A stretch of DNA of 64,000 nt from the human T2T-CHM13v2.0 reference genome, Homo sapiens, in the NCBI RefSeq assembly GCF_009914755.1, contig NC_060933.1; one strand, given 5' to 3'. The first letter of the stretch is position 1; each line of letters opens with the position of its first letter. Both the position numbers and the translations under genes were made by a program. Under the pieces are notes generated by a model. The model saw only the letters and a list, made by a program, of their open reading frames with translations. It ran no database searches and was not told the DNA's origin. This document shows positions 2,201 through 6,437 of the stretch, one piece after another.

Positions 2201-3759
2201 TCAAATATAAGTTTTCTGGGTGTCAACTAGTATAGAAATAGACAACCACAGGGTTCCTGGACCCTGAAGAGAACACAACAGAGGAGGAGGAGGAACGAGC
2301 AGAGCAAGAACACCTCAGATTTCCTATACCCTTTCCAGCTAACTCCAACCACTAATGTGTCTCTGCCTTGGCTGAAAAAGCCCTGTCTGTTATAAAGGCT
2401 GTCTGGGATTTACCCTAGAGCCACTGAATCAGAATCCAGTTGTGTCTGAAGCATCTGTATTAATAAGTTCCAAAGGTGAGTTACCATGCATACCTAAGTT
2501 TGAGAGCCACAGTGCAAGATAAAATGCTTTACAAGTGTTTCAATATTTGTTGCGACATGATTCAACTAAGATCTGATGTTTTACTCTGAGCCCAATACAG
2601 CTGTCTACAGTCTTCAAAATCTCAGGATCACTGTCCAAAATGTCACTCAGAAATCTTCCTAATGGAATTCTTCCTGATTTACCTCCACTCCTTGCCCAGG
2701 GCTCCTGCCCATTGTGTGGGAAAGAAGAGCATGACACAGAGGTGCCCTCACTGATCCATCTTGCTCTGAGGTCTGGTCAACCCATCTATCCTCACTCACA
2801 GCTCCACATCCTTCTCATCTCACTTTTCCATATCTCTAATGGGTCCTTAACTAATTTATTCAAGATGATGTTACCACATTGCTTTCAAACACTGAGTATT
2901 AAAATCAAGTCTGAGTATTAAAAAACATTGTCTAATAGACACACTCCAATTCTAATGATTTTGGTGCCCTAGTATATATTGGCTTGGTTTCCAAACAGAT
3001 AAAATATAAATTGTCTTAAAGAAACAAAAAAATCCATCAACAATTCACACTACGATAATTATTTAATCTTCATTAGAAGGAAAAAGGGAAGAAAGTCTTG
3101 CATTTGCTGAAATTTGCATGTGGTCAATTCAAAACACAAATACTGTAGGAGACTACAGAATTATTTAAAAATCGTTATCCAGAGAAAGATAAAAAATATT
3201 TACAGAAAAAGTTTCATTAAAATTACTAGATAAATTACCAGATAAAATATACCAGCATTTATACCTCTCCAATTGTATGAAAATTTCTATTACAGGGAGG
3301 TGTGATTAAAGAACTACACTACTTGACTTAGTAATAGATCTAAGCTGGCTACTCAAACAGATTGCCATCTGGTCAATCAATTGCCATTTGAAAAGCTGCT
3401 CTAAAAATATCTTCATATAAGTGCGTAAATCTCATCAAAATGTAATGACTTCTAATTAATTTATGCTAGCTAGCAGGAAACAAAATTTCAATGTACACTT
3501 GAGATTCCCACTTATAATACAATTACCAAAACCCTCCAAGATTCCCAAATTATTTCCCCAAAAAGAGACACGGTTAACATCTCCTGATTCCACTTACTAT
3601 GAAGCCACTATAAACTAGTCCTACAATTAGGGCAATCTCTACCAGCCTTTTAAATGTAGGGGAGTCCATCAATTTGCTTTAGCTACAGAATACACAAAAT
3701 ACGCATTTTCTTATTTCCACAAAATGGCAACAGTACACAAAAGTAAGCGGGTGCTGCTA

Positions 3760-3868
3760 TTTACCAACTCTAAGATTATGTACACTTCTGTAAAATGGGA
3801 ACAATACAGAATTCTCTGCCTCACAGGTTGTGAGAATCAGAGAGAAAATGTATGTAAAAGCATACTGT
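3760..3868 (+). mobile_element. MIR fragment interrupted by the NOP56 retrocopy (short remainder ~4782-4815)
   Basis: ctgtaaaatggg...tgcctcacaggttgtgagaatc.gag.aaatgtatgtaaaagc is the MIR 3' half. Confidence 0.6.
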
Positions 3869-4781
3869 TTCCCAGGGCCTAGCAAAAGGACCAAGTCTCC
3901 AGAGCCCTGATGACAAAGGGTAATACACCAAAATATGGACTCGTTTTCCACTCCACCTTCACTGGCCAAGCAGCTGCCAGGAATAAAGGTCGCATCTCCC
4001 AATACCTGGCAAACAAATGCAGTATTGCCTCGCAAATCGACTGCTTCGCTGAGGTGCTCATGAGCATATTTGGGGAGAAGCTTCAAGAACAAGTTGAAGA
4101 GAGACTGTCTTTCTATGAGACTGGAGAGATCCTATCAAAGAAAATGGATGTCATGAAAACAGAAATGGTTCAGGCAGAGAAAACGGCTGCTGAGATTATT
4201 AGGAAGCTGGAGAAACAGGAGTAGAAACACTTAAACAAGGAAAAGAAATGCTAGCTGCACTTGCCGTCCCATCTTTGGAAAACAGAACTCCAGAGGAGTG
4301 TGCAAAGACAAGTGTAAAACCCAAAAAGAAGAAAAAGCAAAAGCCCCAGGAGGCTCCTCAGGAGAATGGAATCAAAGACCCATCTAACTCTTTCTCCAAA
4401 CCTAATAAAAGGAAATCTTTTTCCAAGGAGAAATTGGTTAGCAGCCATCGAGAAGAGACCGCTGGCAGCATCAGTCTTCCCAACAGGAAGACGTCTTCAC
4501 CCAAGGAGGAAGCAGTTAATGATCCCAAAGAGGCAGGCAACAGGAGTGTCACTAAGAAAAAAACAGGAAATTCCCCTTCAAAGAGGAAGGAGCTGGTCAG
4601 CAGTGGACCTGAAGAGGCTGCTGGCAGCAAGAGCAGCTCCAAGAAGAAGAAAAAGTTACATAAAGTACCCCAGGAAGATGAGAGTGCAAACGGACGTCCC
4701 CCGTCAGGCGGGGCACATCCTACCCCAAGGCGACATTTCCCATTCCGTGTCCTACACCCCAATAAAAAATTCTCACACACG
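3869..4781 (+). pseudogene. NOP56: NOP56 processed pseudogene, 5'-truncated (C-terminal Nop domain, lysine-rich tail and 3'UTR)
   Basis: ORFs 3910..4224 and 4248..4811 resemble the NOP56 C-terminus ([37 protein letters not shown] ... KKKKK.HK..QED). It is intronless, with a premature TAG at 4222-4224, a frameshift near 4249, the native stop lost, AATAAA at 4761 and TSD AAGCATACTGT (3858-3868) / AAGCATATTGT (4782-4792). The symbol names the parent gene. Confidence 0.95.
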
Positions 4782-6437
4782 AAGCATATTGTGAATCCTA
4801 AGGCAGTATGATTATGGATATGCACAGAAATATACACTCCTTCACCAAAATGATATTCACAGGCAGAAGTACAGACACTAGAAAAATACTGAAACAACTC
4901 CTTCATTTGAGCTGCTGTTTCTGAAGTGTCAGCCATTAAACTGGAGCCAAGATTCTCTAAGAAGATACTCTTTCCAAAAGACATAAATCAATGGGCACCA
5001 GATTGTATCTGTGAATCTCTCTCATGCGTGCACATGCAGATTATCTCACAAAAGCTCCAACAAGTCCAAAGCAGCAAACAAGAAGTAAACACAAAAGGAA
5101 AAATTCCTGAGAAAACAGCATAATGTTTTGAGATGAGTCACATCCAGGTTTGCATGGGGAGGATTCAGGAAAAGGAACAGTACATGCTCTTTCTGCACAT
5201 GCAGCCACAGCCATCCTGGCTTGCACAAAACAGCAAGGTGTTTAAGTGACTCTGATCAACACAGCATGCTGATGATCCCATTGTACATTTGATTTGGCTC
5301 AGGATCGCCCAATCGAATTTGCTAACACAGTAGACTCCAGAAGAATCACCCATTAACAACAATCCAAATACAGCCTCTAAATGTGCATAAGGCCTTTTGT
5401 GATCTCCACTGGAGCTTATAGTATCTAACAGCTGCAACTGTGACTGTTCTAGCTAATTGCTCTCAGCAACAAAAATAAACAATCGCTTCAGGAAGGAGAC
5501 TGTATCCACCAAATATTAATGAATTTTTAAAATCAGAAATCTCAAATCTTGGTTTAAAAATCTTGCTACTGCTAAAAAGTCTGAAACAGAGTTAAGGAGG
5601 CCCTGAAAGTCCTTATTTTGTAGTTAATTCGCCCCTCCCACCCACCTAACCCCCTCCCCCACAGTTAAAAAAAAAAAAAAAGGAAAAAGGAATGTGGCTT
5701 GGGTTTGGAAGAATTTAAGCAATCTGAGATATTTTAACTCATGTATAACTTTTTAACATATGGGGGAAAAGAGTCGCACTGATTGGAGCTATTTTTAAAG
5801 TGCAGCTCTACCATAAAAATAGACATTTACTCATAAGGATGCTTGAATAGAGAACAAGCCCAATCTACGTCTCATTGTTAAGAAAGGGGTGAAAAAAGGC
5901 TGTCGTGCTTTCTGGAGAGCCGTTTATGGTCCGCCTGTGATGTCATGGCAGGATCCAGGTGCACTCTAACGAGCAGCTTTCAGTCTCATCAATTCCTTTA
6001 AAAGTGCTCTTCTACCATCAGCTAGTTCTCTGAGCACAAGCAATAAGGAGCCAGTATTTACCCAGACCCTTGCAAGACAGAACATCACCGCAATCACAGA
6101 CCCAGGAAGGAGGAGGAAAAATTACTCACACACAATTGGGTTCATCGTCGTCCTCTCCTCCTGTCCCCATTAGGGATGGAAGCATTTTCTTTTGCTAAGA
6201 AAAGAAGGACAGAAGTAGTTATCAGTACCCTATGACATCTACTCACCCTCTGTCCGTAGAGAGAAAAAGTAGCTTCATACTTCTCTCCCTATCCATGACC
6301 CTACTGCATAGCTGATGCTTGCGACCAAATTACCCACCGAACACAGTAGCAAGTAGTCATTTAGGCATCACTACCCTAAACTGAGGTTTGGAGAGATCAT
6401 CTTAGCGTCTGGACTTCATCTGTCTTTAGCCTTTTTA

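What the first reader, a model, noticed from the sequence alone, without database searches (positions are those of the whole stretch)
3858..3920. NOP56 retrocopy appears to derive from the SNORD86-regulated NMD isoform, not the coding mRNA
Seen: the TSD puts the insertion start at 3869, but NOP56 protein similarity starts only at ~3901 (R-A-L). The 34 nt in between (TTCCCAGGGCCTAGCAAAAGGACCAAGTCTCCAG) read ...*QKDQVS in frame, not the expected exon-8 GAEKALF, and end in CAG at the exon-9 start (AGCCCTG, 3903). Established: NOP56 intron 8 hosts SNORD86, which acts in cis to switch exon 8 to a downstream 5' splice donor, giving an NMD substrate and a snoRNA-capped polyadenylated RNA (snoRD86 cSPA). 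Recalled and unverified: the intron-8 sequence between SNORD86 and that donor is TTCCCAGGGCCCAGCAAAGGGACCAAGTTTCCAG|gt, 31/34 identical to the window. Inference: this pseudogene fossilises the non-coding autoregulatory isoform, implying that it existed in the germline of a primate ancestor and was an L1 substrate.
Basis: partly seen in the sequence, partly recalled or inferred. Interest (0 to 1): 0.85.

Follow-up and report, generated by a model that had tools for sequence, protein, structure and literature searches.

The report
NOP56 pseudogene copied from regulatory isoform
This old, dead copy of the NOP56 gene was made from the gene's alternatively spliced, non-coding "off-switch" RNA rather than from its normal messenger, a neat but not unprecedented molecular fossil.

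Summary
Window 3869-3902 (34 nt) matches the NOP56 gene on chr20 at one place only. That place is the last 2 nt of SNORD86 plus the 32 intronic nt after it (31/34 identical; 0 of 1000 shuffles reach 31; BLAST E 7e-9). In the parent this stretch is followed at once by GT. In the window it is joined exactly to exon 9, and exons 9 to 12 follow with exact junctions. An 11-nt target-site duplication (10/11) brackets 3869-4781.

NOP56P2 is therefore a 5'-truncated L1-type retrocopy of an RNA spliced from the downstream "exon 8b" donor. Published work links that splice to the SNORD86-controlled NMD substrate and to its stable snoRNA-capped product, the cSPA. The copy cannot tell these two RNAs apart.

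Its 5' end sits at the 3' edge of SNORD86, and none of the 7 NOP56 retrocopies I found holds exons 1-8. Both facts lean towards the cSPA as template, but weakly.

The copy's own branch length (0.114 substitutions per site) suggests an age of roughly 50-95 My. I could not check orthologous sites.

Weber (2006) described the same anatomy as Type-3 snoRNA retroposons, including one copy spliced from a cryptic donor just after the snoRNA. This is a new member of a known kind, of moderate interest.

The parts
3858..3868 (+). 5' copy of the target-site duplication (AAGCATACTGT). Upstream the top strand reads T|AAAA at 3855|3856, which fits the L1 endonuclease site.
   Evidence: family D11, 10/11 identical to 4782-4792
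3869..3870 (+). First 2 nt of the insert, TT. They equal the last 2 nt of SNORD86 (L001 4056-4057). With the imperfect TG-T overlap at 3866-3868, homology could reach the last 5 nt of the snoRNA.
3871..3902 (+). The 32 nt of NOP56 intron 8 directly downstream of SNORD86, i.e. the 3' end of 'exon 8b' (L001 4058-4089). It has 3 transitions against the parent, one of which makes a TAG at 3880-3882. In the parent it ends at the alternative donor CAG|GT.
   Evidence: ex8b riboprobe in PMC8233366 Methods
3903..4051 (+). NOP56 exon 9 (L001 4276-4424), 149 nt, 89.9% identical, no gaps.
   Evidence: Pfam Nop domain hit at window 3889-4110
4052..4173 (+). NOP56 exon 10 (L001 4649-4770), 122 nt, 85.2% identical. 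Intron 9, which holds SNORD56, is absent.
4174..4304 (+). NOP56 exon 11 (L001 4956-5093), 87.8% identical. It has a first in-frame stop TAG at 4222-4224, a 1-nt deletion and a 6-nt deletion. Intron 10, which holds SNORD57, is absent.
4305..4781 (+). NOP56 exon 12 (L001 5804-6268), including the 3' UTR and AATAAA at 4761-4766; 82.8% identical. It ends near the parent's annotated 3' end. No A-run remains before the 3' copy of the duplication.
4782..4792 (+). 3' copy of the target-site duplication (AAGCATATTGT).

Best explanation
NOP56P2 (insert 3869-4781) is a dead, 5'-truncated, L1-mediated retrocopy of a polyadenylated NOP56 RNA. In that RNA, intron 8 had been spliced from the downstream donor that lies 32 nt after SNORD86 ('exon 8b'), not from the canonical exon-8 donor. 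That splice defines the SNORD86-controlled unproductive isoform: the NMD substrate mRNA, and the stable SNORD86-capped polyadenylated cSPA RNA that NMD cleavage makes from it.

Shown: the 34-nt exon-8b tail, its exact join to exon 9, the removal of introns 9-11, and the flanking target-site duplication.

Inferred: reverse transcription began at the poly(A) end and stopped at the 3' edge of SNORD86, either by arrest or by ordinary truncation. The template was present in germline or early-embryo cells roughly 50-95 million years ago. The copy has no function now.
For: - Split alignment: window 3866-3902 matches L001 4053-4089 (33/37, E 7e-9), and 3896/3903 onward matches exon 9.
- The 34-mer is 31/34 identical to one place only. 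The next-best match is 19/34, and 0 of 1000 shuffles reach 31.
- In the parent the matched stretch is followed by GT, and exon 9 is preceded by AG.
- Global alignment to the parent segments ex8b tail + exons 9-12 shows all 4 junctions exact, 85.3% identity and K2P 0.165.
- SNORD86 ends at L001 4057 by Rfam and by RefSeq.
- The target-site duplication sits at both ends of the homology, and T|AAAA lies at its 5' edge.
- Passages in reviews PMC11028025 and PMC7038934 and in PMC8233366 describe the upstream/downstream donor switch, the PTC, SMG6 cleavage and the snoRD86-protected stable product. They say this product forms the bulk of NOP56 transcripts.
- Reading through the canonical donor gives a TGA after 3 codons, as those papers require.
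- The published 'ex8b' probe is, by eye, antisense to L001 3934-4087.
- Precedent: Type-3 snoRNA retroposons, including a rat U69/Rpl39 copy spliced from a cryptic donor 41 bp after the snoRNA, and truncated versions that the author ascribes to arrest of the reverse transcriptase.
- Age: terminal ML branch 0.114. In the polarised count, 61 of 87 differences at 621 sites with an outgroup fall on the copy's own branch.
Against: - No poly(A) tail is left. At most 'GAA' lies between the parent's 3' end and the 3' copy of the duplication.
- The duplication is short (11 nt, one mismatch), and 12 other short direct-repeat families occur in the same 1.1 kb.
- The copy holds only 2-5 nt of SNORD86 and none of the region with the PTC. 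It therefore cannot show that the template carried the snoRNA or was an NMD target; that rests on the published link between this donor and those RNAs.
- This is one copy only. The other 6 NOP56 retrocopies stop short of exon 9.
- The primary paper (Mol Cell 2018) was not held, so I saw the exact published donor position only indirectly, through the ex8b probe.
- The substitution rates used for dating are recalled, not computed here.
Confidence: 0.9

Rival explanations
1. The template was specifically the snoRD86 cSPA RNA (snoRNP-capped at the 5' end, cytoplasmic, polyadenylated). L1 reverse transcriptase ran off or was arrested at the 3' edge of the bound snoRNP. This is a sharper version of the best explanation.
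For: - The insert begins 2 nt (at most 5) inside the 3' end of SNORD86. If the 5' end fell anywhere with equal chance along a cSPA of about 992 nt, a 5-nt target would be hit about 0.5% of the time. This arithmetic is my own and post hoc.
- None of the 7 NOP56 retrocopy loci holds exons 1-8. DNA searches with L001 480-1520 and 1850-3915 found only the parent and SNORA51 copies. Pfam Nop positions 1-154 and NOP5NT hit no retrocopy.
- Review and paper passages say the cSPA is the predominant, long-lived, cytoplasmic NOP56 RNA.
- SNORD86 alone does not fold better than shuffles (z -0.57). Bare RNA structure is therefore not an obvious cause of arrest.
Against: - Strong 5' truncation is ordinary for L1-made copies, so 7 of 7 short copies is weak evidence.
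- In Weber's Type-3 snoRTs the reverse transcriptase usually copies the snoRNA: 18 of 30 U70 copies hold it whole. A bound snoRNP is therefore not a firm block.
- The coincidence was noticed after the fact.
- The copy carries no snoRNA sequence that could prove a snoRNA-capped template.
Confidence: 0.45
2. The template was the full-length exon-8b NMD-substrate mRNA, and the 5' end at SNORD86 is a chance truncation point, possibly helped by the 1-2 nt of microhomology with the target.
For: - The same splice is present in this RNA.
- TG/T similarity between the target end (3866-3868) and the parent's TGA before TT.
- 5' ends of the other copies are scattered: L001 4724, 4748, 4957, 5065, 5802 and about 6043.
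Against: The NMD substrate is short-lived and, according to the passages read, far less abundant than its cleavage product. No retrocopy with upstream exons was found.
Confidence: 0.4
3. This is an ordinary retrocopy of the coding NOP56 mRNA, and 3869-3902 is unrelated: target-site DNA, filler, exon 8 or acceptor-side intron.
For: RefSeq annotates the locus simply as a NOP56 pseudogene. The last 6-7 nt (CTCCAG) also resemble the intron-8 acceptor TCTCAG, so BLAST extends the exon-9 hit back to 3896.
Against: - 31/34 identity to the post-SNORD86 stretch, against 11/34 to the exon 8a end and 8/34 to the intron 3' end; 0 of 1000 shuffles reach 31.
- The stretch lies inside the target-site duplication.
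Confidence: 0.02
4. The copy came from an intron-8-retaining RNA or from genomic DNA, and a later deletion in the pseudogene removed L001 4090-4275.
For: Weber notes Type-3 snoRTs with intron losses that no cryptic splice site explains.
Against: The missing 186 nt begin with GT and end with AG exactly, at a donor that published work names as functional. Introns 9-11 are also removed cleanly.
Confidence: 0.03

Closest known systems
Type-3 snoRNA retroposons (snoRTs), Weber 2006, PLoS Genet, PMC1687206 (sections 8 and 13 read)
   Same: L1-type insert with a target-site duplication. [quoted passage not shown] Such copies were often annotated as plain processed pseudogenes, with the intronic part overlooked. 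One rat U69/Rpl39 example keeps only 41 bp after the snoRNA, spliced from a cryptic donor. Truncated versions are ascribed to arrest of the reverse transcriptase. The proposed template (host pre-mRNA cut, trimmed to the snoRNA, with the 3' part spliced and polyadenylated) is what was later named SPA/cSPA.
   Different: Here only 2-5 nt of the snoRNA survive, so this is not a snoRNA retroposon in the working sense. The donor is not cryptic: it is the regulated exon-8b donor of an autoregulatory circuit. SNORD86 is C/D box, whereas most of Weber's Type-3 examples are H/ACA. NOP56/SNORD86 was not among the examples in the passages I read. His supplementary figures were not available to me.
snoRD86 cSPA and the NOP56 NMD-substrate mRNA (Lykke-Andersen et al. 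2018, Mol Cell; seen only through passages of PMC11028025, PMC7038934, PMC8233366 and PMC12152556)
   Same: Same downstream donor after SNORD86, same downstream exons 9-12, same poly(A) site.
   Different: The window holds a DNA fossil of that RNA, lacking SNORD86 itself and the PTC region. It carries 14.7% mismatches, stops and frameshifts. I found nothing to suggest it takes part in the regulation.
Processed pseudogenes as fossils of splice variants (Shemesh et al. 2006, PNAS; seen only as an entry in a reference list; paper not held; content recalled)
   Same: A retrocopy preserving an alternative splice form of its parent.
   Different: That work is a general survey. I could not check whether NOP56 is in it.

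Membership tests
L1-mediated processed pseudogene (retrocopy) | Introns removed at the parent's exact splice junctions | tested here: met
   4 of 4 junctions are exact (ex8b|9, 9|10, 10|11, 11|12) in the alignment.
L1-mediated processed pseudogene (retrocopy) | Target-site duplication flanking the insert | tested here: met
   11 nt, 10/11, at 3858-3868 and 4782-4792, abutting both ends of the homology. It is short and imperfect.
L1-mediated processed pseudogene (retrocopy) | Poly(A) tail after the parent's polyadenylation site | tested here: inconclusive
   AATAAA is at 4761-4766 and the copy ends near the parent's 3' end, but no A-run remains before the 3' copy of the duplication. Loss in an old copy is possible; I cannot show that a tail ever existed.
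L1-mediated processed pseudogene (retrocopy) | Insertion at an L1 endonuclease-like site (TTTT/A on the bottom strand) | tested here: met
   The top strand reads GT|AAAAGC at 3854-3861, directly at the 5' edge of the duplication. The consensus itself is quoted in PMC1687206 section 13.
Type-3 snoRNA retroposon (Weber 2006) | [quoted passage not shown] | tested here: inconclusive
   Only the last 2 (at most 5) nt of SNORD86 are present. This fits the 'truncated' variant only at its extreme limit.
Type-3 snoRNA retroposon (Weber 2006) | Holds intron sequence downstream of the snoRNA, then the processed 3' exons and the poly(A) site | tested here: met
   32 nt of downstream intron, then exons 9-12. 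The intron is not entire but spliced from a donor, as in the published rat U69/Rpl39 case.
Product of the SNORD86-regulated exon-8b splice (NMD substrate / cSPA) | Use of the 5' donor downstream of SNORD86, joined to exon 9 | tested here: met
   The ex8b probe in PMC8233366 covers this stretch up to 2 nt before the donor, judged by eye.
Product of the SNORD86-regulated exon-8b splice (NMD substrate / cSPA) | Carries SNORD86, at the 5' end for the cSPA or internally with an upstream PTC for the NMD substrate | not testable with these tools
   The retrocopy is truncated at the 3' edge of the snoRNA, so the discriminating part is absent.

The most novel reading that the evidence does not exclude
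All NOP56 retrocopies in the human genome, this one included, were copied from the snoRNP-capped cSPA and not from NOP56 mRNA. On this reading, the 5' end of NOP56P2 marks where L1 reverse transcriptase was halted by the assembled box C/D snoRNP. The 5' ends of retrocopies would then be a genome-wide fossil record of snoRNA-capped polyadenylated RNAs and of their protein caps. NOP56P2 would show that the autoregulatory loop was already running in the germline 50-95 million years ago.
Probability: 0.3. Interest if true: 0.55.

Novelty: new member of a known kind. Interest (0 to 1): 0.38.

Why it matters
The copy gives direct sequence evidence that the downstream exon-8b donor of NOP56 was in use, and that its product was present in heritable cells, tens of millions of years ago. 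That rests on the splice itself rather than on conservation. It agrees with the reported eutherian conservation of the SNORD86 region (passages) but adds little to it.

It also links two lines of work that the passages I read do not connect: Weber's Type-3 snoRNA retroposons (2006) and the later SPA/cSPA RNAs. This suggests a cheap genome-wide screen, asking whether retrocopies whose 5' ends carry post-snoRNA intron sequence can serve as markers of snoRNA-capped RNAs.

On the practical side, the RefSeq span of NOP56P2 (3884-4775) starts inside the exon-8b tail, 15 nt after the true start of the insert.

Tried and rejected
Alternative sources for 3869-3902. The end of exon 8a (11/34) and the 3' end of intron 8 (8/34) were rejected. 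Pre-existing target DNA was rejected because the stretch lies inside the target-site duplication. For MIR I could only note that no masked repeat of 100 bases or more lies between window 2000 and 6444; no MIR consensus was available.

A second copy carrying the exon-8b tail. A genome search with L001 3930-4130 found only the parent. At that sensitivity even the window's own 37-nt match is not reported, so this blank says little.

Retrocopies with 5' exons.
- The first search, with L001 480-3915, was swamped by an intronic Alu: 6077 candidates, 40 scored. I discarded it.
- I repeated the search on either side of the Alu and with Pfam NOP5NT and Nop. No retrocopy with exons 1-8 turned up.
- The NOP5NT search also missed NOP58, so its sensitivity is limited. 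Matches in closed regions of the reference are not shown.

RNA structure as the cause of arrest. Exon 8b gives z -0.79 and SNORD86 alone z -0.57, so neither folds better than shuffles. I dropped this as an argument either way.

SNORD56 copies. Seven dispersed annotated SNORD56 copies were checked for attached NOP56 exons. None has any; one runs 26 nt past the snoRNA.

Literature.
- Mol Cell 2018 and PNAS 2006 are not held.
- PMC4233243 does not mention NOP56.
- 'NOP56P2' occurs in 0 papers.
- Searches for retrocopies of NMD isoforms or of snoRNA-capped RNAs turned up no report of this case in the listings I read. PMC13122676 mentions NOP56 only as the name of a protein complex.
- Supplementary files, for example Weber's Figure S3 and tables, were not opened and may list NOP56-derived copies.

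Orthologous-site dating could not be tried. No primate or other mammalian genome is reachable with these tools.

Full report
What is there. I read window 3600-5100 and compared it with the parent gene NOP56, fetched from the same reference as L001 = chr20:2682593-2689360. BLAST of window 3700-4900 against L001 gave five collinear hits:

- window 3866-3902 to L001 4053-4089 (33/37, E 7e-9)
- window 3896-4051 to exon 9
- window 4051-4174 to exon 10
- window 4171-4302 to exon 11
- window 4311-4768 to exon 12

Rfam places SNORD86 at L001 3972-4057 (108 bits), the same span as RefSeq. The first hit therefore covers the last 5 nt of SNORD86 and the 32 nt after it. In the parent those 32 nt end in CAG and are followed by GTCAGC. 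Exon 9 is preceded by TCTCAG.

Parent anatomy. From the splice sites printed, in L001 coordinates:

- exon 8a: 3809-3909
- canonical donor GT: 3910-3911
- SNORD86: 3972-4057
- alternative donor: after 4089
- exon 9: 4276-4424
- exon 10: 4649-4770
- exon 11: 4956-5093
- exon 12: 5804-6268

The exon-8b extension is 180 nt. Reading through the canonical donor gives ...GAEKALFRYQ and then a stop at 3917-3919. That stop is the premature termination codon upstream of the snoRNA which the published model requires.

Strength of the match. The 34-mer at window 3869-3902 is 31/34 identical, ungapped, to L001 4056-4089. The next-best place in the gene, on either strand, is 19/34. Of 1000 shuffles, none reaches 31 and the highest is 22. 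The end of exon 8a gives 11/34 and the 3' end of intron 8 gives 8/34. A global alignment of the insert to the parent pieces (ex8b tail + exons 9-12) shows all four junctions exact. Identity is 91.2% in the tail, 89.9% in exon 9, 85.2% in exon 10, 87.8% in exon 11 and 82.8% in exon 12, or 85.3% overall, with K2P 0.165. In the NOP56 frame the copy reads PRA*QKDQVS, then [14 protein letters not shown].... The first stop after that is at 4222-4224, and frame-breaking deletions follow.

How it got there. An 11-nt direct repeat (10/11) lies at 3858-3868 and 4782-4792, exactly at the two ends of parent homology. The top strand reads T|AAAA at its 5' edge, which fits the L1 endonuclease site quoted in Weber 2006. 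The copy ends near the parent's annotated 3' end, 15 nt after AATAAA. No A-run is left, and that is the one missing hallmark. The duplication is short, and the same 1.1 kb holds 12 other short repeat families, so only its position carries weight. The clean removal of four introns leaves no real doubt that an RNA was the intermediate.

Which RNA. I read passages of two reviews (PMC11028025, PMC7038934) and of a research paper (PMC8233366). They describe the following.

- When snoRNP proteins are plentiful, SNORD86 in the pre-mRNA takes its snoRNP form.
- The upstream donor is then shut and the downstream donor is used.
- The resulting mRNA carries a premature stop and is cut by SMG6.
- 5'-3' decay halts at the snoRNP, leaving a stable, cytoplasmic, polyadenylated RNA capped by snoRD86 (the cSPA). 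This RNA makes up most NOP56 transcripts.

The Methods of PMC8233366 give an 'ex8b' riboprobe which, by eye, is antisense to L001 3934-4087. That confirms the window's 32 nt belong to what the field calls exon 8b. The primary paper was not held. The retrocopy therefore stems from the exon-8b splice. It lacks the snoRNA and the stop-codon region, so it cannot distinguish the NMD substrate from the cSPA.

Hints towards the cSPA, with their limits. The insert starts with the last 2 nt of SNORD86, or at most 5 if the imperfect TG-T overlap with the target is counted. Seven NOP56-derived retrocopy loci were found in the reference: chr9 (this one), chr12, chr6, chr16, chr13, chr1 and chrX. None reaches beyond exon 10 except this one, and none holds exons 1-8. 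Two kinds of search support that.

- DNA searches on either side of an intronic Alu returned only the parent and dispersed SNORA51 copies.
- Pfam Nop and NOP5NT searches of the genome hit NOP56, NOP58, PRPF31 and this pseudogene only.

These facts fit a template no longer than the cSPA, with reverse transcription halted at the snoRNP. Four things speak against leaning on them.

- Heavy 5' truncation is normal for L1-made copies.
- The coincidence was seen after the fact.
- In Weber's U70/RPL10 set the snoRNA is copied whole in 18 of 30 cases.
- The searches have stated blind spots: closed regions, scoring of best candidates only, and the NOP5NT search missing NOP58.

Neither exon 8b nor SNORD86 folds better than shuffles (z -0.79 and -0.57), so RNA structure gives no argument either way.

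Age. I used the other retrocopies to polarise the differences. At 621 sites with an outgroup, 61 of 87 differences fall on this copy's own branch, 23 on the parent lineage, and 3 are ambiguous. A further 26 differences had no outgroup and were left out. An ML tree of exons 10-12 (HKY+G, 8 sequences, 725 columns) gives these terminal branches:

- chr6: 0.021
- chr12: 0.044
- this copy: 0.114
- chr13: 0.128
- chr16: 0.132
- chr1: 0.183
- chrX: 0.261

The order among the older copies is poorly supported (19-41%). With neutral rates of 1.2 to 2.2 x 10^-9 per site per year, which are recalled values and not computed here, 0.114 corresponds to about 50-95 My. That span covers the base of primates and earlier, so 'a primate ancestor' is plausible but untested. 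No other mammalian genome could be reached.

What is known. Weber 2006 (PMC1687206; sections 8 and 13 read) defined Type-3 snoRNA retroposons. They consist of the snoRNA, the downstream intron, the processed 3' exons, an A-tail and a target-site duplication, and they are made by the L1 machinery. The proposed template is a host pre-mRNA that was cut, trimmed to the snoRNA, then spliced and polyadenylated. [quoted passage not shown] He also describes a rat U69/Rpl39 copy that keeps only 41 bp after the snoRNA, spliced from a cryptic donor. NOP56P2 has the same anatomy, taken to the extreme of losing the snoRNA, and here the donor is a regulated one. The general idea that retrocopies preserve splice variants is also older (Shemesh et al. 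2006; seen only in a reference list; content recalled). 'NOP56P2' occurs in no paper of the searched library, and two further searches found no report of this case. Supplementary files were not open to me.

Verdict. The case is a new, well-resolved member of a known kind. It is worth a line in a paper on NOP56 autoregulation or on snoRNA-linked retrocopies, but it is not a surprise to a specialist, because the template is the most abundant stable polyadenylated NOP56 RNA. The boldest reading my evidence does not exclude is that NOP56 retrocopies in general are fossils of the cSPA, and that their 5' ends record the snoRNP cap. That reading would need the cross-species and genome-wide surveys listed under next steps.

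Noticed in passing
L006 (G000:C16:70321474-70324808), minus strand; join near L006 2366-2371: An unannotated NOP56 retrocopy on chr16 joins the end of exon 10 directly to the start of exon 12. Exon 11 (138 nt, a multiple of three) is absent, which suggests an exon-11-skipped template or a later exact deletion.
   Followed up: partly
L013 (G000:C1:20517770-20520930), minus strand, L013 about 2154-2280: An old NOP56 retrocopy on chr1 carries a piece of NOP56 intron 11 between exon 11 and exon 12 (L001 about 5247-5370). In the parent that piece is flanked by AG and GT, so it looks like a cassette exon. The copy also has a short tandem duplication and two Alu insertions.
   Followed up: partly
L007 (G000:C13:92736388-92739674), L007 1199-1790: The chr13 NOP56 retrocopy is in two abutting halves of opposite orientation: the rest of exon 12 on the minus strand, then exon 11 plus the start of exon 12 on the plus strand. 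This pattern is usually ascribed to twin priming; that name is recalled.
   Followed up: no
window 3884-4775 (RefSeq NOP56P2 span): The annotated pseudogene starts 15 nt inside the insert, within the exon-8b tail and 19 nt before exon 9. It ends 6 nt short of the insert's 3' end as set by the target-site duplication (finding's annotation).
   Followed up: yes
whole genome G000; L015-L021 and matches: NOP56's intronic snoRNAs are widely dispersed on their own. Seven annotated SNORD56 copies carry no NOP56 exons; one on chr11 runs 26 nt past the snoRNA. SNORA51 gave 13 dispersed matches, two of them adjacent on chrX. By contrast, SNORD86 has no second copy at that sensitivity.
   Followed up: partly
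L001 1530-1830 (NOP56 intron, chr20:2684122-2684422): An Alu in a NOP56 intron swamped the first genome search: 6077 candidates, 40 scored. It matters only as a caution for searches with genomic NOP56 DNA.
   Followed up: no
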